Sequence record: PP434423.1
From: Escherichia phage 236Ecol005PP
Length of the DNA: 64,000 nt
Strand: one strand, 5' to 3'
Made by a program: the position numbers and the translations under genes. Position 1 is the stretch's first letter. Every line of letters begins with the position of its first letter. Positions 8,702 to 20,926 of this stretch are shown here, piece by piece. The notes beneath the pieces are model-generated. The model searched no databases and was not told the origin of the DNA. It saw only the letters and a program-made list of their open reading frames with translations.

Positions 8702-9172
8702 TTAATCATGTTTCCACACCCCATCGGTATTTGACCAAAGTCGCTGATTATCTGAACCTCGCCACAGCTTTTTGGTCGGAAGATTTTTCTCATACTTCCC
8801 ATCAATAATAACATCAACATATTTAAGCATTTCTAGTTGTTTAATATCTTCAAACTTATATCCTGTCCACAACCAAATGCTTTTATTCGGATAAAGATTT
8901 TTTACTGTTTGAACAATGCAATGAACAACATCTCGGTTATCAGGATAAAGAGGGTCACCTCCAGTTATAGTTAATCCTTCTATATAATCATTATTCAAAC
9001 ATTCAATTAATTGTTCTAGTGTTTCACCAGTGAATGGAACGCCATTTCTAGCATTCCAAGTACTACGATTATAACAACCTTCACATTTATGCAAACAACC
9101 TGTAACGAAAAGAACGACCCTGCATCCAGGGCCATTCACAAAATCGCAAGGATAAAATCTATCATAATTCAT
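8702..9172 (-). CDS. nrdG: Anaerobic ribonucleotide reductase activating protein (radical SAM)
   Basis: 156 aa; CxxxCxxC radical-SAM cluster motif (GCLHKCEGCYN); directly downstream of nrdD with 4-nt overlap. Confidence 0.9.
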   Translation of the reverse strand: MNYDRFYPCDFVNGPGCRVVLFVTGCLHKCEGCYNRSTWNARNGVPFTGETLEQLIECLNNDYIEGLTITGGDPLYPDNRDVVHCIVQTVKNLYPNKSIWLWTGYKFEDIKQLEMLKYVDVIIDGKYEKNLPTKKLWRGSDNQRLWSNTDGVWKHD

Positions 9173-10460
9173 TGGTGTTTAACCCTATGCATGATTTCTT
9201 TATTTTTGCCGAGATTAAATCCACGTTCGTTCGGATTTCCCAAATAACCACAAGTTCTTCTTATTGTGTTCATCTTTTTAGGATCAGTTTCTCCACAAAT
9301 AGAACAAACAAATCCGTTTTCAGTAGGAGTCATTTCATGAGTGCTTCCACACGTAAAACATTTATCTACTGGCATGTTAACACCAAAATAATCTAAATGT
9401 TGTGCAGCATAATCCCATACAGCCTCAAGACCTTTTAGGTTATTTTTCATATCAGGAAGTTCAACATAAGAAATGTGACCGCCTGTTGCAATGAAATGAT
9501 ACGGGGCTTCGCGAGAAATCTTTTCAAACGGAGTAATATTTTCTTCTACTGAAACGTGGAAACTGTTAGTGTACCAGCCTTTATCAGTAACATCCTTTAC
9601 ACTTCCATATTTTTCTGTATCAAGTTTACAGAAGCGATAGCAAAGGTTTTCAGCAGGAGTAGAATACAAGCTAAAAGCAAAACCGGTTCTTTCAGTCCAC
9701 TGCTTAAGACGAGCATTCATTTTAGTTAAAATTTCCTGTCCAATATCACGACCGACAAGAATATTCAATTCGTGAATACCAATGTATCCTAGGGACACTG
9801 AACTTCTACCGTTTTTAAATAACTCAATTATGTCGTCATCAGGTTTAAGACGAACCCCGAATGCACCTTCTTGGTAAAGAATAGGAGCAACAGTCGCTTT
9901 AACTCCTTTTAAGGAACTAATTCTACACATCAATGCTTCAAAACACAAATCCATTCGTTCATTGAACAATTCGGCAAATTTCTGTTCATTGAACTGTGTT
10001 CCAATATAAGAATCTAATGCAATACGAGGAAGATTCAGTGTTACAACACCAAGATTATTACGTCCATCAAGAATTTCATTACCAGTCGAATCTTTCCATA
10101 CGCCCAAGAAACTACGGCAACCCATTGGAGAAACAGGAATAGATGAACCAGTGATAGCTTTATTGTTCTTAGCTGAAATAATATCAGGATACATTCTTTT
10201 ACTTGCACACTCTAGAGCAAGCTGCTTAATATCATAGTTCGGATCGTCTTTATAAAGATTAACACCTTCTTCAACGAACATAACAAGTTTAGGGAAAATA
10301 GGAGTTATCCCATCACGACCAAGACCTTTAATACGATTTTTCAGAATTGCTTTCTGAATCATTCGTTCAGTCCAGTCAGTTCCCGTACCAAATGTAATTG
10401 TTACAAAAGGCGTTTGTCCGTTAGAGCTGAAAAGTGTATTTACTTCATCATTATATTCAG
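9169..10460 (-). CDS. nrdD: Anaerobic ribonucleotide reductase NrdD, exon 2 (C-terminal part incl. Zn-ribbon CxxC...CxxC)
   Basis: Frame continuous with exon 1 after removal of ~1 kb intron; ORF-track start at 10500 is a TTG inside intron; splice junction placed by U.G/terminal-G rule, +/- a few nt. Confidence 0.8.
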
Positions 10461-13791: not shown

Positions 13792-14007
13792 TTACCCCAG
13801 TTTAACCATGCAATCGCCATATTTCCATTTAGAAATAGACTTTTCACCGTTAGAATAATAAACTTCGAGTTTAGCGCGGCCATTTTTAATTTGAATAACC
13901 TTTGCTGTCATCAAAGTTCCATACCCGTAATAAACTGCAACCTCATCACCTACATATACCGCGCTTCCGCGGTAGTCATGGATATAATCAGTTCCTTCAA
14001 GCATCAT
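13792..14007 (-). CDS. small hypothetical protein
   Basis: ORF track; ATG overlaps nrdC stop. Confidence 0.45.
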   Translation of the reverse strand: MMLEGTDYIHDYRGSAVYVGDEVAVYYGYGTLMTAKVIQIKNGRAKLEVYYSNGEKSISKWKYGDCMVKLG

Positions 14008-14267
14008 TTAAAGTATTCCCGCAATTGGTCAAATCCACCAATATGACTTCCATCAGGAGCAAATACCTGAGGCATCGTCAATCCGGTTTGAGTATCACGA
14101 CCTAGTTTAGTCAGAAGCTCAGCGATTTTCTCATCATCAAAAACACCTTTTTCCGGCATAATATTGATAAATTCAAACGGATGTTTTTTCACAGTCAAGA
14201 GACGTTTTGCATTATCGCAATACACACATTTATGGATGTTGCTATCATAACCATATACTTTAAACAT
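14004..14267 (-). CDS. nrdC: Thioredoxin/glutaredoxin NrdC
   Basis: 87 aa; MFKVYGYDSNIHKCVYCDNAK... with CVYC redox site, near-identical to T4 thioredoxin as recalled. Confidence 0.9.
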   Translation of the reverse strand: MFKVYGYDSNIHKCVYCDNAKRLLTVKKHPFEFINIMPEKGVFDDEKIAELLTKLGRDTQTGLTMPQVFAPDGSHIGGFDQLREYFK

Positions 14268-14268
14268 A

Positions 14269-14511
14269 TTATTCCTTAATTCCTAGTACTTGTTTAAAAG
14301 TCTCGTCGTAATCAAGACTTTGACCTGTTTGTTCTTTATGTTTGTATATAATATCACTTACTTCTGATAGCATATTTTTATATGAACGAGTTAAAGCAGA
14401 TTTAAGCACGCTATATCTATCAGGAAATTTACCGTGTTCATTATAATACGCTATTGCTAATTCACGGACTGCCTTTTCAGCAGTCTCCATATATTCTTTA
14501 CGCTTGGTCAT
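14269..14511 (-). CDS. small hypothetical protein (80 aa from internal Met)
   Basis: ORF track 14269..14670 trimmed to Met avoiding long overlap. Confidence 0.4.
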
Positions 14512-14794
14512 TTTCTTCTCGGTTAAATCGGTGTTTGCAATGACGGCATTTATAACGAAGATTACTAGTCTGCCAATGGACCAATTGAACCTGTTCAGTA
14601 CCGCATTCAGGACAATTAGGAACGTTTTTAGAAGCCCTTTCGCGACGTTCAACCATAGCCATAATAGCATCCCAAGCAGGAGGTTTAAAGTCTAGATCGT
14701 CAGTAACTAGCAGTCCTTTATCAAACCCAGCGCATGGAGTCCATTCAGGAAAATCTGAAGCTTCGGCAATATCTTCTAATAAACGCTTTTTCAT
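14498..14794 (-). CDS. small zinc-ribbon protein
   Basis: 98 aa; CPECG-x17-CRHC four-Cys ribbon at C-terminus. Confidence 0.5.
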
Positions 14795-15717
14795 TTCAGC
14801 ACCTCAATAGCATCACGTAAACCATTTGCTTTGGCGGTTAAAGCCTTAATAACTTTAGTATGCTCTTCAATCTGTTTTTCAACTTCAATCAAACGGGCAC
14901 TGAGATATTCGCGTTCTTCTTTCATAGTATCATTTCCATGATTAGGCTTTGGCGTAGGTTTAAATTTACTAGGGTCCTTTAACTTAATAACAACTTTAGT
15001 TTCAAACAGTGAAAGACCATAATTCGTATTATCATCAAAGGATTCAACTACGTCCATTTTAGACAATAACGTACGAAGATTATAAGTCAAAGAGCGAATC
15101 GTTTTATTATGTTTATTAGCTTCACGCGGTTTCATATATGGAAGATTTTTATATATTTCGTGTGGAGCACAAACAATAATTGACAATTCAAATGGTCCAT
15201 TCTGTGATGATGGAACGAATTTAGCCGTAACCCAATCTTTTACATTTACATTAATAGTACGGTCATCGCCATGACAAAACAGTCTACGAGAATGCTTAAA
15301 AAGCATATTCACATTATTATTAAATTCATGTGAAAACTCACTAGCAAATTTTTCTTTACTATTTTTAGAAAACCATTCTTCTAAATAAGTTCTTTTCACG
15401 TCATTAATAATATTAAATGTAACAACATTAGCATTTGATACATTAGTCTCAATGTAGCTTGGATACATAAATTTTTTAACATTATTAACAGCTATCACAG
15501 AAGATAGTAATCGAGAACGTTTGAACCACTCTAGCAAAGAACCAAGAGAATGTGAATACGCATTTTGTGTATCTTTACAAATATGGTTTTCCCATCCAAT
15601 ATAGTCTAAAAAATCACGAAGAATATTATTGATTACTGCTCTATGTCCTATCTGATAATTACGATGTTTAGTAATAAGACTGTCAAAATAATCAATATAA
15701 TGTTTACGAGTTTTCAT
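14791..15717 (-). CDS. hypothetical protein with C-terminal coiled coil (paralog array member a)
   Basis: 308 aa; MKTR N-terminus; last ~45 aa heptad-like ([42 protein letters not shown]). Confidence 0.55.
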   Translation of the reverse strand: MKTRKHYIDYFDSLITKHRNYQIGHRAVINNILRDFLDYIGWENHICKDTQNAYSHSLGSLLEWFKRSRLLSSVIAVNNVKKFMYPSYIETNVSNANVVTFNIINDVKRTYLEEWFSKNSKEKFASEFSHEFNNNVNMLFKHSRRLFCHGDDRTINVNVKDWVTAKFVPSSQNGPFELSIIVCAPHEIYKNLPYMKPREANKHNKTIRSLTYNLRTLLSKMDVVESFDDNTNYGLSLFETKVVIKLKDPSKFKPTPKPNHGNDTMKEEREYLSARLIEVEKQIEEHTKVIKALTAKANGLRDAIEVLK

Positions 15718-15769
15718 GTTCTTCTCACTTGGTTAATGATTTATACTCCGAGCCATCCTTGGCTTTAAA

Positions 15770-16771
15770 TTACTTAATTAACTGTAAAGCTTGTTCAAGA
15801 CGATCCAGACGATTAACAGATTCTTCCCAAATCCTTTTAGCCTGCTCATATTCTTTCTGTGCTTTATTAGAAATTTCTAGAGCTTCTTTATAAGCTTTTT
15901 CTAATGCAATAACTTCTGGACGAATTTCTACCGGTTCAGGCGAATCATCAAGATTATCCATTAGTTCCTCAAGTGTAGTTTCTTCTTTAGGAGTATTCAC
16001 AATTTCATCACATTTTTGTTGGTAAATTTCTTTATCAGTCGGTGAATAAGCACATTTCACTTCACGAAGACTAACTACAATTTTATATCCTTCCCAACCG
16101 CATATATTCTTAAAAGGATACGTATGAATATTTTCTACTGTTTCCATACAAAGTAATGCGGTTTCTAATTGACGAGTTATAGTGCTAGCAATTGAGAAAA
16201 ATTTATTAATGTTCTTTTGGCTAGTTTCTGGTGTAAAAAATCCATAATTCACAAAAATAGATACTTTATTTTTATCAAGTTCATATTCTTTTATGATAAT
16301 CATATCAGAAGCCAAAGGATGAATTTGACGATAATCACCATAGCATAATTTAGAAGCTGATTTTAGAATTTGCTTTTTGAAAAGTCTGAAATTACTAATC
16401 CAACGACGAGTAAAAATATTCTCAGGGTCTTCTTTATTATTAAGATGATAAGAATTAACATCACCGAACCAATTATATCCTACTACATCTTTGGTTCGTT
16501 TAATTTCTTTCCCAAAATTACCAAGAATATCCCGATTAACCAAATATGAAAGAAGACGAGACTCTTTAAAGGTTTTCTTGATAACATCTTTATCTACACG
16601 ACTAGAAATTTTACGAATTTCATGAATAAATTTAGTAGAAGAAACAATACCTGCATCAACACTATTGAGCCATTGATTGATAATAGAAATAACGCTATTT
16701 TGACCAAACATCGGTATAGCTTTATCATCAATAACACTATTGAATGATTTGATATATTCGTTACGAGTCAT
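15770..16771 (-). CDS. hypothetical protein with C-terminal coiled coil (paralog array member b)
   Basis: ~333 aa from Met-18; RRWISNFRLFKKQILKSASKL motif shared with member c; coiled-coil tail. Confidence 0.55.
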   Translation of the reverse strand: MTRNEYIKSFNSVIDDKAIPMFGQNSVISIINQWLNSVDAGIVSSTKFIHEIRKISSRVDKDVIKKTFKESRLLSYLVNRDILGNFGKEIKRTKDVVGYNWFGDVNSYHLNNKEDPENIFTRRWISNFRLFKKQILKSASKLCYGDYRQIHPLASDMIIIKEYELDKNKVSIFVNYGFFTPETSQKNINKFFSIASTITRQLETALLCMETVENIHTYPFKNICGWEGYKIVVSLREVKCAYSPTDKEIYQQKCDEIVNTPKEETTLEELMDNLDDSPEPVEIRPEVIALEKAYKEALEISNKAQKEYEQAKRIWEESVNRLDRLEQALQLIK

Positions 16772-16828
16772 ATTAATCTCCTCAGTAGAAAGTAAGAACA
16801 TTATACCACATCCTTGTGGCAAAGTAAA

Positions 16829-17857
16829 CTAGTTCAGTGCATTTAGTGCATTGTTCAGTTTAGAACGTTGCTTTGTCAGATTTTGAACCCTTGACTGAGC
16901 TTGTTCTAGCATCTTTTCAGCTTCTAGCACTTCATTAGTTGCTTTAACGAGTTCATCATCTACTGCCTTAAGAGACTTCTCAATCGCATCAGCATGCCAT
17001 TTTTCAACAGGTTTAAGACTCGGATTTTCAGTAGGAAGAAAACTCACTTTATTAAGTTTACATGCATCTATATTGCTTGAGCTATACATCCAAAATTTAG
17101 GATCGTTTGATGAGTAATTGGATAAATTTAAATTTAAGTTATCTTGCACTTCCTGCTTTTTCTCTTGCGTGACTTCGTCCTTTCTCAAAAAATCGTATTT
17201 AAATGAAACGATCATATCAAGTTCATATGTTGTTGTGTCTAATTTAAATCGTTCGAAATGTTGTGAAATCTTAGACTGAACAGCGGCAACAACATCCATA
17301 TACTTAAATGCTTCTGTCAACTGCGATTTAAGGCATTCGCAAATTGAAAGAGAATTTTTTGTATTAGGTTTAAAGCTAATTCGTGCAGTTCTGTTATTTT
17401 CTTTTAATGGTCTTACTTCCATCTGAAGAGTATAACCATCAAATTTCAAGTTCTTTAAGTTAATATCAGAACCTTTTAATCGACTCGCAGTTGATAAAAT
17501 TTGCTTTAATTGTCTACGGAACAGAGCAATAAATCTCCATTCAATACGATAATGATTTGGATTGAAAAATCCAGATGATAAATCGACCTTACTTTGACCA
17601 ACGCCTTGAACAAATAGAGGATTTTTATAATCAATAGTTTTACAGAAATCGGTGAGCTGCTCACGAGCCGTCATTTGTGTAATATACCCTGCTTTATTAA
17701 AATTACGCACCCATTCACTGCTATTCGTATACTTAAAGTGATGAATAACACGATTAACTTTATCAGGGTCTAAATTATTTTCACACAAAAATGTCATAAC
17801 ATCACGAGTATAACTGGCATTACGAACCATATCTTCAATTTGAGAACGAGTTTTCAT
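16829..17857 (-). CDS. hypothetical protein with C-terminal coiled coil (paralog array member c)
   Basis: 342 aa; MKTR N-terminus; EWRFIALFRRQLKQILSTASRL motif; coiled-coil tail. Confidence 0.55.
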   Translation of the reverse strand: MKTRSQIEDMVRNASYTRDVMTFLCENNLDPDKVNRVIHHFKYTNSSEWVRNFNKAGYITQMTAREQLTDFCKTIDYKNPLFVQGVGQSKVDLSSGFFNPNHYRIEWRFIALFRRQLKQILSTASRLKGSDINLKNLKFDGYTLQMEVRPLKENNRTARISFKPNTKNSLSICECLKSQLTEAFKYMDVVAAVQSKISQHFERFKLDTTTYELDMIVSFKYDFLRKDEVTQEKKQEVQDNLNLNLSNYSSNDPKFWMYSSSNIDACKLNKVSFLPTENPSLKPVEKWHADAIEKSLKAVDDELVKATNEVLEAEKMLEQAQSRVQNLTKQRSKLNNALNALN

Positions 17858-17865
17858 GGTGTTCC

Positions 17866-18792
17866 TTAAGATTTAAGTAAATCAACAATTTTAATTAACT
17901 TTTCACGCTCAGATTTAGCTTTACTACTCAATCCAGATAGTCTGAAAATTTCATCGTCATATTGTTGAATAGAAATATTCAGCTCTTCAATCTGCTTATT
18001 AAAATAATCAATTTGTTCAGAATGTTTTTCGTTACTACGAACTGGTACAGGTTTCGTAGGCAATGTAGTTGAACTGGATTCATTCGGGCGATAAATTAAA
18101 ATACAACTTGAACCAATAGGGCATTTTGCACCAGATGAATATTCTAATGTTCCAGCTTCTTTTAAAACTTCAAAAGCTAAACAGAGATGATGCCCCATAT
18201 TAACATAATCTGTAGAGCGAGCTCTGATGTAATAATCATCTCCACGAATACTAAATTTAAAGCATTTAAGGTCTTCTGTATTATTGGTCTTAAAAATCAT
18301 TTGTTTATCTAGACCTTTAGCTAATCGAGCACCTAATGCTAATAATCGTCGTTGATTTTCCCACAAATCCGTTATCATTTGATCGAATGATAATTTTGGC
18401 ATTAGTCGACCATAAAGGTCATATCCTTTATTATAATTACGAAGGATTTCGCTCGCATTAATACGAGACAACGCTCCAATTTTATTAAGGGCTTTCATAA
18501 TGCGATTAGATAAACTCATTCCAGACCCGGTTGTTCGCTGCAAATGTTTTTCTAATCCAAATCCAATATCAACTTTAAACTTATCTAAAATTTCTGCATG
18601 AACATCTTTGTCGATAACATTCAAATCCAAAGTTGGGTTAAATCTATGAAAAAATTTATCTGGCTCTCCACGGCGAAGTACAGTCCATTCATTCATCATT
18701 TTTTTATTAACTAATGATTTAATTACTGCATTGACATTATTAATTACTACTGACATATTTTCCTCACTCAATTTCAATTTTACTAAATACAC
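17866..18792 (-). CDS. hypothetical protein with C-terminal coiled coil (paralog array member d; start may be internal Met ~18756)
   Basis: 308 aa; WENQRRLLALGARLAKGL motif; coiled-coil tail. Confidence 0.5.
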   Translation of the reverse strand: MYLVKLKLSEENMSVVINNVNAVIKSLVNKKMMNEWTVLRRGEPDKFFHRFNPTLDLNVIDKDVHAEILDKFKVDIGFGLEKHLQRTTGSGMSLSNRIMKALNKIGALSRINASEILRNYNKGYDLYGRLMPKLSFDQMITDLWENQRRLLALGARLAKGLDKQMIFKTNNTEDLKCFKFSIRGDDYYIRARSTDYVNMGHHLCLAFEVLKEAGTLEYSSGAKCPIGSSCILIYRPNESSSTTLPTKPVPVRSNEKHSEQIDYFNKQIEELNISIQQYDDEIFRLSGLSSKAKSEREKLIKIVDLLKS

Positions 18793-19171
18793 AGAATATG
18801 ATTGAACAGACTACATAAGCGCCACACACGGATTGAACTAATACCATTCCAAAGAACCAAACAATATTATCAAACAGTGTCTGTTTTACGTCGAAAGGAC
18901 GTAAACTTACAGTAATATTATCACCCTTTTCTATTGAAGAATACATCTCTGGGGAAATATATTCACTAAATCTATAACCGTCTTTGAGTTCATATACGGC
19001 AATAAACGATAAACTAGACCCTTTTCCTTGTGTTCCTGTAATGGTATTAACTACAGTAACATCATAATCTTTATAATGCATATAATCATTAATTGCGTAA
19101 TAACCGTATGCAACTACTACACATAAACAGCATATCAATAAATTCAATCTTTTAATTATCAACTGTTTCAT
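18764..19171 (-). CDS. membrane protein (N- and C-terminal TM helices)
   Basis: 135 aa; LLICCLCVVVAYGYYAI and IVWFFGMVLVQSVCGAYVVCSIIFCVF hydrophobic segments. Confidence 0.5.
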   Translation of the reverse strand: MKQLIIKRLNLLICCLCVVVAYGYYAINDYMHYKDYDVTVVNTITGTQGKGSSLSFIAVYELKDGYRFSEYISPEMYSSIEKGDNITVSLRPFDVKQTLFDNIVWFFGMVLVQSVCGAYVVCSIIFCVFSKIEIE

Positions 19172-19232
19172 AATAATAATAATCTCAATTAAAAGGGCTT
19201 AGAACCATTATACCATCCTTGGTATAAAGCGG

Positions 19233-19760
19233 TTATGCGAGTACCGTCTTTAACCGTTCTTCAAACTTCCGAAGAGTATTTTGGCGTTCAGCTCTTTGCT
19301 TTTTGTAAGTTTCAATACGCTCTGAAATGAGAGTGTATCGTTCATTTACTGATTCTTTCATAAAATCAGGAATTTCACGAGAAGCTTTAATCTCATCAAA
19401 TTTATCAATAACAGCTTGCTCTTCAGCAATTAAGTTATCATACATTAAAATATCTTTCTTGATGAACTCAATATCTTCTTGAGTTACACGAGATAATTTA
19501 GATGCTTTATCCTTTTTGTACTGTTCGTTAGTATCACGAGACCAGTGTAATGTACGATTTTTATTCGTATTCTTGTAAATTTCTACAATACCAATTTCAT
19601 CAATAATAACGATCCAATTCCAACGGGATTTGTAAATTTGTCCTCCATCAACTGTGATTTCACCTCCGATTGAGATGTCGTTAAAGAACTTACTCTGTGC
19701 TTCAGATTTAAATTTACCATCGTTGTAATTTACCAAGTTGAAAATATCTTTAGCGTTCAT
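19233..19760 (-). CDS. hypothetical protein
   Basis: 175 aa; GGAGG SD before ATG; first gene after an early promoter. Confidence 0.5.
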   Translation of the reverse strand: MNAKDIFNLVNYNDGKFKSEAQSKFFNDISIGGEITVDGGQIYKSRWNWIVIIDEIGIVEIYKNTNKNRTLHWSRDTNEQYKKDKASKLSRVTQEDIEFIKKDILMYDNLIAEEQAVIDKFDEIKASREIPDFMKESVNERYTLISERIETYKKQRAERQNTLRKFEERLKTVLA

Positions 19761-20206: not shown

Positions 20207-20926
20207 TTAGGATTCTTCTAAATGTCTTTTCTGAAAAGTTGATACCATACTACGATACGGTTCATTTGGATATCCGTGTTTTATAGCTTCCTTTGTAAAT
20301 TTTCTCCATCCATATTTAGTTTCTTTCCAAAGCTCGAATAATTCATCTTCATACTGCCATATAGTTAAATGAGAACGCTTTGCAGCTTTAATTCCATTAA
20401 TATGCTTTTCTTTTACTGCAGGATTGCTTAGTTTCTTTTTAATAATATTACTAACTTTTCTAACAAAAACTGGGTCCTTATATCGTTGCGAAGTTTTTAT
20501 TGAAGTGTTTAATTTAACTTCCGGCGTGGATGTAACCTCTTTCATCTTTTTCTTCATATGCTGTATATGATTAGGATTTTTCCATAAATTTATAGAATGC
20601 TTTTTGCATTTTATCCTAGTTTCATCTGCAACCTTTCCTCCTTCACCCCCGTATGACAGGTTAACACAGTTTTTTCCATATTTCAATTTACCTGCCATGA
20701 TATATAATATTTCAGCTTGTACCATTTTATCATAATTATCAAAAACTTCTAAAACCGTTTTTGATAATATGTGGTCATTTGACACTTTTACACGTTCTAT
20801 ATAATTTCCACTACCAACATACGAATCATTGATGTTATTAGTTATATGTCGACCATAATAGTATTTCTTAATACCTGTCTTTAAATTTAATATTTCAGTT
20901 TTATAGATAGTAAAATATTTTTTCAT
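20207..20926 (-). CDS. putative GIY-YIG homing endonuclease (at the slot T4 uses for mobD)
   Basis: 239 aa; N-terminal TIYK-x12-YYYG, YGKNCVN, Lys-rich C-terminal half. Confidence 0.5.
   Translation of the reverse strand: MKKYFTIYKTEILNLKTGIKKYYYGRHITNNINDSYVGSGNYIERVKVSNDHILSKTVLEVFDNYDKMVQAEILYIMAGKLKYGKNCVNLSYGGEGGKVADETRIKCKKHSINLWKNPNHIQHMKKKMKEVTSTPEVKLNTSIKTSQRYKDPVFVRKVSNIIKKKLSNPAVKEKHINGIKAAKRSHLTIWQYEDELFELWKETKYGWRKFTKEAIKHGYPNEPYRSMVSTFQKRHLEES

What the first reader, a model, noticed from the sequence alone, without database searches (positions are those of the whole stretch)
14791..18792. Tandem array of four ~300-350 aa paralog-like genes, each ending in a coiled coil
Four consecutive minus-strand genes (308, ~333, 342 and 308 aa) each end in a ~45-residue heptad-rich helix. 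Members b and c share a clear internal motif (RRWISNFRLFKKQILKSASKL versus EWRFIALFRRQLKQILSTASRL), and d has a weaker version (WENQRRLLALGARLAKGL); a and c both start MKTR. The pattern suggests an expanded, diversifying family, which in phages often marks host-interaction or anti-defence functions. Membership of a is the weakest.
Basis: seen in the sequence. Interest (0 to 1): 0.5.

Follow-up and report, generated by a model that had tools for sequence, protein, structure and literature searches.

The report
T4 nrdC.3–nrdC.6 paralog gene array
Four neighbouring early genes of a T4-like phage (nrdC.3 to nrdC.6) are very diverged copies of one ancestral gene; one of them, nrdC.5, is already known to neutralise the bacterial Dsr1 immune protein, so the other three are good but untested candidates for further anti-immunity factors.

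Summary
The window is a Tequatrovirus (T4-like) genome. The four genes are nrdC.3, nrdC.4, nrdC.5 and nrdC.6, each 95-98% identical to its T4 counterpart.

- nrdC.3 and nrdC.4 are the clearest pair (hhalign probability 98%, same PHROG).
- nrdC.4 and nrdC.5 are linked by profiles (E 1e-5; controls score far lower).
- nrdC.6 has no direct sequence link. It joins through single-copy relatives in other Straboviridae (E 1.8e-7) and through AlphaFold models with the same order of secondary-structure elements and eight shared Foldseek neighbours.

All four share one architecture: a helical bundle plus a beta-beta-alpha-beta-beta sandwich, a proline-rich linker, and a terminal amphipathic helix of about 45-50 residues.

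Copy number rises from 1 (distant genera) to 3 (two groups of coliphages outside Tequatrovirus) to 4 (Tequatrovirus).

The genes evolve 3-20 times faster at the protein level than flanking core genes, but dN/dS stays below 1.

T4 nrdC.5 is published as overcoming the Dsr1 sirtuin defence. Anti-defence roles for the other three, and direct binding as the mechanism, are inferred.

The parts
14791..15717 (-). nrdC.3 (member a), 308 aa; a duplicate of nrdC.4 found only in Tequatrovirus among the loci sampled
   Evidence: ORF; 95% identical to T4 NrdC.3; phrog_1435 at E 7e-101; hhalign against the nrdC.4 family gives probability 98%, E 4.5e-14; absent from loci L007-L015; two mosaic alleles at 61% identity
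15770..16771 (-). nrdC.4 (member b), 333 aa from ATG 16771
   Evidence: ORF; Shine-Dalgarno GAGGAG before the ATG; 97% identical to T4 NrdC.4; relatives carry PF26897; AlphaFold model with pLDDT 83
16800..16828 (-). sigma-70 (T4 early-type) promoter-like site, GTTTAC-17-TGgTATAAT, just upstream of nrdC.4
   Evidence: This is a consensus match only: promoter-like sites are not enriched in the region as a whole
16829..17857 (-). nrdC.5 (member c), 342 aa; ortholog of the T4 protein that overcomes Dsr1
   Evidence: ORF; Pfam DUF7235 (PF23882) at E 7.9e-121; 95% identical to T4 NrdC.5; function of the T4 protein from PMC9391042
17866..18756 (-). nrdC.6 (member d), 296 aa from ATG 18756
   Evidence: ORF; start site; relatives carry PF26899; AlphaFold model with pLDDT 78; linked to the family through the family-E profile (probability 94%, E 1.8e-7) and shared Foldseek neighbours
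14794..14934 (-). C-terminal amphipathic heptad helix of nrdC.3 (about residues 262-308)
   Evidence: heptad analysis; 80% identical between the two alleles, against 40-55% in the middle of the protein
15776..15919 (-). C-terminal helix of nrdC.4 (residues 285-332)
   Evidence: model; 58-75% identical across genera, against 28-51% for the N-domain; dN/dS 0.04
16832..16999 (-). C-terminal heptad helix of nrdC.5 (about residues 287-342)
   Evidence: 15 of 16 a/d positions are hydrophobic; aligned to the terminal helices of family E
17872..18030 (-). C-terminal helices of nrdC.6 (residues 243-272 and 278-295)
   Evidence: model; 52-71% identical across genera; dN/dS 0.04
16514..16570 (-). a second shared block in nrdC.4 (residues 68-86, FKESRLLSYLVNRDILGNF)
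   Evidence: same column as c 53-71 and d 90-108 in the profile alignments
17645..17701 (-). the second shared block in nrdC.5 (residues 53-71, FNKAGYITQMTAREQLTDF)
18433..18489 (-). the second shared block in nrdC.6 (residues 90-108, LNKIGALSRINASEILRNY)

Best explanation
The four genes are the early accessory genes nrdC.3, nrdC.4, nrdC.5 and nrdC.6 of a Tequatrovirus. They are very diverged tandem duplicates of one ancestral gene, which is single-copy next to nrdC in the more distant Straboviridae sampled. Each protein has a variable N-terminal globular part (a helical bundle followed by a beta-beta-alpha-beta-beta sandwich), a disordered proline-rich linker, and a C-terminal amphipathic helix of about 45-50 residues. 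In nrdC.4 and nrdC.6 that helix is clearly more conserved than the rest of the protein. Shown by others for the T4 ortholog: nrdC.5 is sufficient in trans to let a deletion mutant infect cells carrying the Dsr1 sirtuin (NAD-depleting) defence. Inferred here: the family is a set of early-made immune antagonists. The fast-evolving N-domain of each paralog binds a different host defence protein, and the conserved terminal helix mediates oligomerisation or docking, which would add avidity against oligomeric defence proteins. Duplication and allele swapping would then widen the range of defences covered.
For: Identity: the region is 92-97% identical at the DNA level to hundreds of Tequatrovirus genomes and is annotated nrdC.3-nrdC.6.

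Homology:
- A-B: hhalign probability 98%, E 4.5e-14; both proteins are in phrog_1435.
- B-C: E 1.1e-5, score 45, against reversed controls of 12-18; they are reciprocal best non-self HMM hits among 131 window ORFs.
- Family-E profile: against D, probability 94%, E 1.8e-7, score 58; against C, 82%, E 9.9e-6, score 47; against B, E 4e-4, score 36. The maximum over 56 negative and reversed comparisons was 26. All alignments are in one register.
- An independent PHROG network joins phrog_1435, 26858, 33957, 23608 and 31182.

Structure: the b and d models (pLDDT 83 and 78) have the same order of secondary-structure elements. They share eight Foldseek neighbours of 304-346 aa from other T4-like phages, at E 3e-8 to 2e-3. 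One of these, fHe-Yen9-01 gp111, is also a member of family E.

Expansion: 1 copy in Karamvirus, Klebsiella phage Roth79 and Citrobacter phage Ursula; 3 in L007-L015; 4 in Tequatrovirus.

Rapid evolution: identity between these phage groups is 20-28% for c and 39-51% for b and d, against 80-88% for gp49 and NrdC. dN/dS is 0.12-0.28, against 0.01-0.06 in the flanks. nrdC.3 alleles are mosaic.

Conserved terminal helix.

Function: T4 nrdC.5 restores plating on dsr1-carrying cells (PMC9391042), and the window protein is 95% identical to it. There is an early-type promoter-like site before nrdC.4.
Against: - No function is known for nrdC.3, nrdC.4 or nrdC.6. Their anti-defence role is extrapolated from one paralog that shares no more than about 25% identity with them.
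- The mechanism of nrdC.5 is unpublished in the literature I could search. Direct binding and coiled-coil oligomerisation are inferences; no multimer or complex prediction could be run.
- nrdC.6 has no significant direct sequence link to a, b or c (hhalign probability 2% or less). Its Foldseek TM-scores to the shared neighbours are only 0.4-0.5.
- No model of c or a was made.
- dN/dS is well below 1, so positive selection was not demonstrated.
- In family C the terminal helix is not more conserved than the N-domain across these phage groups.
- The d family has many invariant polar residues, which could point to a catalytic or ligand-binding site rather than a pure binder.
Confidence: 0.6

Rival explanations
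1. The paralogs are subunits of one hetero-oligomeric early complex, held together by their C-terminal helices, and carry out a single function together rather than each targeting a different host defence.
For: All four are adjacent and on one strand. The d-to-c gap is 8 nt. All four end in a similar L-x-x-[AIV]-[LIV]-x-[ALV]-[LI]-[KN] tail. The terminal helices of b and d are under much stronger constraint than the N-domains.
Against: nrdC.5 alone, expressed from a plasmid, restored infection of the deletion clone on Dsr1-carrying cells, although the text found does not say which other nrdC genes that clone had lost. Copy number varies from 1 to 4 between phage groups. Reference T4 carries an nrdC.6 without the terminal helix. 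A natural nrdC.5-nrdC.3 fusion lacking nrdC.4 occurs on contigs up to 167 kb long, about whole-genome size.
Confidence: 0.15
2. Only nrdC.3, nrdC.4 and nrdC.5 are homologous. nrdC.6 is an unrelated gene that has converged on a similar size and a C-terminal helix.
For: Direct profile comparisons of D with A, B or C are no better than the controls (scores 16-23 against 12-18). HMM searches with the D N-domain find nothing in the window. Pfam and PHROGs keep nrdC.6 as a separate family.
Against: The family-E profile matches D over 210 columns (E 1.8e-7) and, in the same register, matches C and B. The N-domain-only comparison still gives E 4e-5. The b and d models have the same order of elements and eight shared Foldseek neighbours. 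In the loci from other coliphage groups (L007-L015) d is always the first gene of the conserved d-c-b array.
Confidence: 0.1
3. The family has a housekeeping role in phage nucleotide or DNA metabolism, as the widespread GenBank label 'thioredoxin' suggests, or is a virion component related to tail-terminator proteins.
Confidence: 0.05

Closest known systems
T4 NrdC.5 (Pfam DUF7235, PF23882), which counteracts E. coli ECOR17 Dsr1 (Srikant et al., eLife 2022, PMC9391042)
   Same: Member c is its ortholog: 95% identity over the full length, the same position in the genome, and a Pfam hit at E 7.9e-121. Members a, b and d share its architecture and are distant homologs.
   Different: The activity was shown for the T4 protein, not for this phage's allele. 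The paralogs share no more than about 25% identity with it and have no known target. Pfam and PHROGs file them as separate families (PF26897, PF26899; phrog_1435, 2351, 2257).
DSAD1, the anti-DSR2 protein of SPbeta-like Bacillus phages (PMC10973363, PMC11087589)
   Same: It is a phage-encoded protein that neutralises a SIR2-domain NADase defence. DSAD1 inhibits DSR2 (abstracts listed). That it does so by binding DSR2 directly is from my own knowledge, and direct binding is the model proposed here for NrdC.5 and Dsr1.
   Different: No sequence or fold relationship was found or tested. The target is different (DSR2, not Dsr1). DSAD1 is not known to me as part of a tandem paralog array.
The T4 anti-toxin island dmd-tifA-adfA (PMC9391042)
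   Same: It is a cluster of early, non-essential T4 genes that each disarm a different host defence, with homologs that vary between T4-like phages.
   Different: Those genes are small and are not described as related to one another. Here the neighbours are paralogs of about 300 aa with a common domain plan.
Tail-terminator (lambda gpU-like, DUF3168) and RNA polymerase alpha-NTD/Rpb11-like alpha/beta sandwiches

Membership tests
T4 nrdC.3-nrdC.6 gene set (Tequatrovirus) | Orthology in sequence and position to T4 nrdC.3, .4, .5 and .6, between nrdC.2 and nrdC.7 | tested here: met
   95%, 97%, 95% and 98% protein identity to the T4 proteins; same gene order as in T4 and RB51
DUF7235 / NrdC.5 (PF23882) | Pfam model match above the gathering score | tested here: met
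   Member c scores 403.6 bits against a cut-off of 30, E 7.9e-121, over the full length. Members a, b and d do not match
DUF7235 / NrdC.5 (PF23882) | Ability to overcome the Dsr1 defence | not testable with these tools
   Shown for the T4 protein only (PMC9391042)
PF26897 (NrdC.3/NrdC.4 family) | Sequence membership | tested here: met
   All 64 relatives of b carry a precomputed PF26897 hit. The nrdC.5-nrdC.3 fusion protein P0056, whose C-terminal half is nrdC.3, also carries it. a and b both match phrog_1435. The model is not in the local Pfam copy, so a and b were not scanned against it directly
PF26899 (NrdC.6 family) | Sequence membership | tested here: met
   All 105 relatives of d carry a precomputed PF26899 hit; d matches phrog_2257 at E 2.5e-151
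One superfamily containing all four genes | Significant profile-profile similarity outside the terminal helix, in one consistent register | tested here: met
   With the C-terminal helix of the a-d profiles removed: A-B E 2.3e-13; B-C E 1.1e-5; E-D E 4.2e-5; E-C E 7e-4; E-B E 1.1e-3. Controls score 26 or less. Direct D against A, B or C: not met
One superfamily containing all four genes | Same fold | tested here: inconclusive
   The b and d models have the same order of elements and eight shared Foldseek neighbours. No pairwise superposition could be run, and a and c were not modelled
Coiled-coil proteins | Long C-terminal helix with heptad a/d hydrophobic periodicity | tested here: met
   79-94% hydrophobic residues at a/d positions over 49-56 residues in all four; helices in the b and d models. 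Actual oligomerisation could not be tested
Thioredoxin/glutaredoxin (the GenBank label on many orthologs) | Thioredoxin-fold domain | tested here: not met
   No thioredoxin or glutaredoxin family in Pfam at E up to 0.1; the models are not thioredoxin-like
Tail terminator (gpU-like) | Close structural match over the whole domain | tested here: not met
Known defence-system proteins (PADLOC) | HMM match | tested here: not met
   Only a BrxC match at E 0.008 on the terminal helix of b, which is not meaningful

The most novel reading that the evidence does not exclude
The family is a modular anti-immunity platform. A constrained C-terminal helix would act as a common oligomerisation or docking handle. 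A swappable, hypervariable N-terminal cassette has a beta-beta-alpha-beta-beta sandwich that faintly resembles phage tail-terminator proteins. That cassette would act as an early-expressed decoy for host pattern-recognition sensors that normally detect conserved late structural proteins; for example, the TPR sensor of Dsr1 is reported to recognise major capsid proteins (PMC12803255). Each paralog or allele would blind a different sensor.
Probability: 0.1. Interest if true: 0.75.

Novelty: new member of a known kind. Interest (0 to 1): 0.45.

Why it matters
nrdC.5 is one of the few known antagonists of SIR2-type NAD-depleting defences, and its mechanism is unknown. Showing that its three neighbours are diverged paralogs has several uses. 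It joins three separate Pfam families and about ten PHROG families across Straboviridae into one superfamily. It gives three concrete anti-defence candidates in the best-studied phage. It provides a domain map (variable head, conserved terminal helix, mosaic alleles) for designing binding, truncation and domain-swap experiments. It also documents stepwise gene-family expansion (1, then 3, then 4 copies) of a counter-defence gene.

Tried and rejected
- Pairwise BLAST among the four proteins: only a-b is significant (E 3e-5). b-c, c-d and the rest are not.
- Direct hhalign of D against A, B or C, with or without secondary structure from the models: not significant.
- HMMER profile of the nrdC.3/4 family against 1.84 billion representative proteins: only 9 hits, none from the c or d families and no cellular homologs.
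- The search for related loci with single intermediate proteins: only near-identical loci or nothing.
- PADLOC: nothing meaningful.
- Rfam on 14000-19500: no RNA family.
- DNA repeats within the array: only short matches of 19-23 nt, so the duplications are old.
- nrdC.8, which also ends in a charged helix: no profile link, so it was rejected as a fifth member.
- Klebsiella phage VAC66 ORF72 (321 aa): belongs to a different PHROG and was excluded.
- Slopekvirus and Krischvirus loci: no family member within 9 kb of nrdC.
- Taxonomy look-ups of the VR25 and IME281 phages failed on name format, so L007-L015 are described by phage name only.
- Literature: only four papers in the searchable library mention these gene names (three listed), and none describes the paralogy or a mechanism.
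Full report
**What the region is.** The 4-kb stretch matches 502 phage records by megablast, and 461 of them cover at least 80% of it. Nearly all are T4-like coliphages, mostly at 90-97% identity. In RB51 and in T4 itself the four genes are annotated nrdC.3, nrdC.4, nrdC.5 and nrdC.6. They lie between nrdC.2 and nrdC.7, in the early accessory region flanked by gene 49 and nrdC on one side and nrdC.10 and nrdC.11 on the other. The window proteins are 95%, 97%, 95% and 98% identical to the T4 proteins. The window's NrdC.5 is 100% identical to that of Escherichia phage 236Ecol005PP.

**Checking the observation.** The ORFs are as described, with two refinements.
- nrdC.4 starts at ATG 16771. The ATG is preceded by GAGGAG and by a T4 early-type promoter-like site, GTTTAC-17-TGgTATAAT, at 16828-16800.
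- nrdC.6 most likely starts at ATG 18756 (296 aa), which is preceded by GAGGAAAAT. The GTG at 18792 would overlap nrdC.7.

All four proteins end with a proline-rich linker followed by a charged stretch free of proline. In that stretch 79-94% of heptad a/d positions are hydrophobic, and the tails are similar: [37 protein letters not shown]. AlphaFold models built on alignments of 24-26 sequences show helix 285-332 in NrdC.4 (mean pLDDT 83) and helices 243-272 plus 278-295 in NrdC.6 (mean pLDDT 78).

**Are they paralogs?**
- Pairwise BLAST supports only a-b (24% identity over 273 residues, E 3e-5).
- I built family alignments from database relatives and from 14 related loci, then compared profiles.
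- A-B gives probability 98%, E 4.5e-14. B-C gives probability 69-82% and E 1e-5 to 4.5e-5 over 144 columns (b 68-222 against c 53-203). Reversed-profile controls score 12-18, against 45 for the real comparison.
- Among 131 window ORFs, the B N-domain HMM finds a (E 4.7e-16) and then c (E 0.0037), with the next ORF at E 0.4. The C HMM's best non-self hit is b.
- PHROGs independently puts a and b in phrog_1435, and both b and c weakly hit phrog_26858.
- So a is the best-supported member, not the weakest.

**Placing nrdC.6.** Direct profile comparisons of D with A, B or C are at control level. Two independent lines place it in the family.

Foldseek searches against BFVD with each model share eight neighbours among their top hits. 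These are uncharacterised proteins of 304-346 aa from T4-like phages of Enterobacter, Pectobacterium, Acinetobacter, Klebsiella, Serratia and Yersinia, at E 3e-8 to 2e-3, 12-16% identity, and TM about 0.4-0.5 for most.

*Sequence, through intermediates.* I fetched the nrdC neighbourhood of other Straboviridae. Several carry a single gene of about 313-355 aa with a C-terminal heptad helix: a Karamvirus of Enterobacter and one of Aeromonas, Citrobacter phage Ursula, Klebsiella phage Roth79, and Yersinia phage fHe-Yen9-01. These genes are related to one another (BLAST E 4e-4 to 8e-8). A five-sequence profile of this "family E" gives:

| Compared with | Probability | E-value | Score | Columns |
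|---|---|---|---|---|
| D | 94% | 1.8e-7 | 58 | 210 |
| C | 82% | 9.9e-6 | 47 | 236 |
| B | 34% | 4e-4 | 36 | 266 |

With the C-terminal helix of the a-d profiles removed, E-D still gives E 4e-5. Fifty-two comparisons with 13 unrelated window proteins of similar size, plus four reversed profiles, never exceed a score of 26.

All alignments share one register, with four collinear blocks:
- K-x-[GS]-...-L-x-[DN]-[FY] (b 68-86, c 53-71, d 90-108).
- A Q-L-x-x-A-[LF] helix after the first hairpin.
- The terminal helix.

One family-E member, fHe-Yen9-01 gp111 (313 aa), is also a Foldseek hit of both models. The Klebsiella member hits phrog_23608, 31182, 33957, 26858 and 1435, which independently ties these families together. 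I conclude that the four genes belong to one highly diverged superfamily, which Pfam (PF26897, PF23882, PF26899) and PHROGs currently split. My confidence in this is about 0.85.

**Expansion and rate of evolution.**
- Copy number: 1 in Karamvirus, Roth79 and Ursula; 2 in fHe-Yen9-01, not adjacent; 3 in nine IMG/VR loci (L007-L015), in the order d-c-b.
- Copy number is 4 in Tequatrovirus, where nrdC.3 is an extra copy of the nrdC.4 type.
- No member lies within 9 kb of nrdC in a Slopekvirus or a Krischvirus.
- Between Tequatrovirus and L007-L015, NrdC.5 keeps only 20-28% identity and NrdC.4 and NrdC.6 keep 39-51%. NrdC.8 keeps 67-70%, and gp49 and NrdC mostly 80-88%.
- Within Tequatrovirus, dN/dS is 0.28, 0.19, 0.19 and 0.12 for a to d, against 0.01-0.06 for genes 49, nrdC, nrdC.8 and nrdC.9. 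This means relaxed or partly diversifying evolution, not gene-wide positive selection.
- nrdC.3 exists as two mosaic alleles. The first 70 residues are about 95-100% identical, residues 80-270 about 40-55%, and the terminal helix about 80%.
- In B and D the terminal helix is markedly more conserved than the N-domain: 52-75% against 28-53% identity across genera, and dN/dS 0.04 against 0.12-0.20.
- No DNA-level repeats remain between the copies.

**Function.** T4 nrdC.5 is described as an uncharacterised early gene. Expressed from a plasmid, it restored plating of an evolved T4 deletion clone on MG1655 carrying ECOR17 dsr1. Deleting dsr1 in ECOR17 had the same effect (PMC9391042). Dsr1 is a SIR2-domain defence protein thought to deplete NAD+. 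A 2026 preprint reports that its TPR sensor recognises phage major capsid proteins (PMC12803255). I found no paper describing the mechanism of NrdC.5, the paralogy, or any function for nrdC.3, nrdC.4 or nrdC.6.

**Proposed mechanism.**
- *Shown:* the identity of the genes, their homology, the shared architecture, the expansion, the fast evolution, and the conserved terminal helix.
- *Published, for the T4 ortholog:* anti-Dsr1 activity of NrdC.5.
- *Inferred:* the proteins are early-made antagonists of host immunity. The variable N-domain would bind a host defence protein (Dsr1 in the case of NrdC.5), and the terminal helix would drive oligomerisation or docking. The paralogs and alleles would cover different targets.

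The main rival is that the paralogs assemble through their helices into one complex with a single function. That nrdC.5 alone was sufficient in trans, the variable copy number, the helix-less nrdC.6 in reference T4, and a natural nrdC.5-nrdC.3 fusion lacking nrdC.4 all argue against an obligate complex, but they do not exclude it.

**Verdict.** However, the genes are well-known T4 ORFs, and the anti-defence role of one member is already published. What is new is modest:
- the four genes, together with single-copy genes in other Straboviridae, are unified into one superfamily with a defined domain plan;
- three paralogs are nominated as anti-defence candidates.

Noticed in passing
L031 (T4 NC_000866) 9067-9894, compared with window 17866-18756: Reference T4 nrdC.6 is only 275 aa. 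It matches the window protein (98% identity) up to about residue 259 and then reads a frameshifted tail (...QIEELIFLFNNMMMKFSDYLD*). Laboratory T4 therefore lacks the conserved C-terminal helix of this protein.
   Followed up: partly
protein P0056; corresponds to window about 17054-17422 joined to about 14791-15309: A 299-aa protein seen on three contigs (longest 167 kb) is an in-frame fusion of NrdC.5 residues about 146-268 to the second-allele NrdC.3 from residue about 137. This is a natural deletion that removes nrdC.4 and parts of both neighbours. The junction is not in homologous register.
   Followed up: partly
window 14791-15717, compared with L002, L005 and L006: nrdC.3 occurs as two alleles in Tequatrovirus at 61% identity overall. 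The N-terminal 70 residues and the C-terminal helix are conserved and the central 190 residues are hypervariable. This looks like cassette replacement by recombination.
   Followed up: yes
window 20207-20926 (-): A 239-aa seg-like GIY-YIG homing-endonuclease ORF lies between nrdC.9 and nrdC.10. At 99% identity it is present only in RB51 and L003, with a 31% match in L009; the other loci lack it. It is probably a mobile insertion.
   Followed up: partly
L016:4779-5570, L017:5353-6141, L018:4837-5610, L028:5236-6012, L030:5852-6634, L029:2772-3548: In genera with a single family member, a conserved gene of about 257-263 aa (C-terminus ...KTHAFFKRPSKV) sits a short way upstream of it: adjacent in Roth79 and Ursula, one or two small genes away in the two Karamvirus loci, and about 1.5 kb away in fHe-Yen9-01. 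A gene of similar size (258 aa, sequence not compared) is also annotated in a Krischvirus that lacks the family near nrdC. No counterpart was noticed in the window's array.
   Followed up: no
window 19233-19760 (-), nrdC.8: The 175-aa NrdC.8 also ends in a long charged helix, and a 175-aa Klebsiella phage protein is a weak Foldseek hit of both models (E 0.02 and 0.19). Profile comparison with the four families showed no relationship.
   Followed up: yes
window 14498-14794 (-), nrdC.2: NrdC.2, which gives only weak, sub-threshold zinc-ribbon hits in Pfam, is unusually variable among Tequatrovirus genomes: 64-96% identity, where its neighbours are 94-99%.
   Followed up: no
window 15706-15724 and 17846-17864: The translation-start regions of nrdC.3 and nrdC.5 share 17 of 19 bases (GAA.A.CATGAAAACTCGT). 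This is the DNA basis of the shared MKTR start. It is too short to tell homology from chance.
   Followed up: partly
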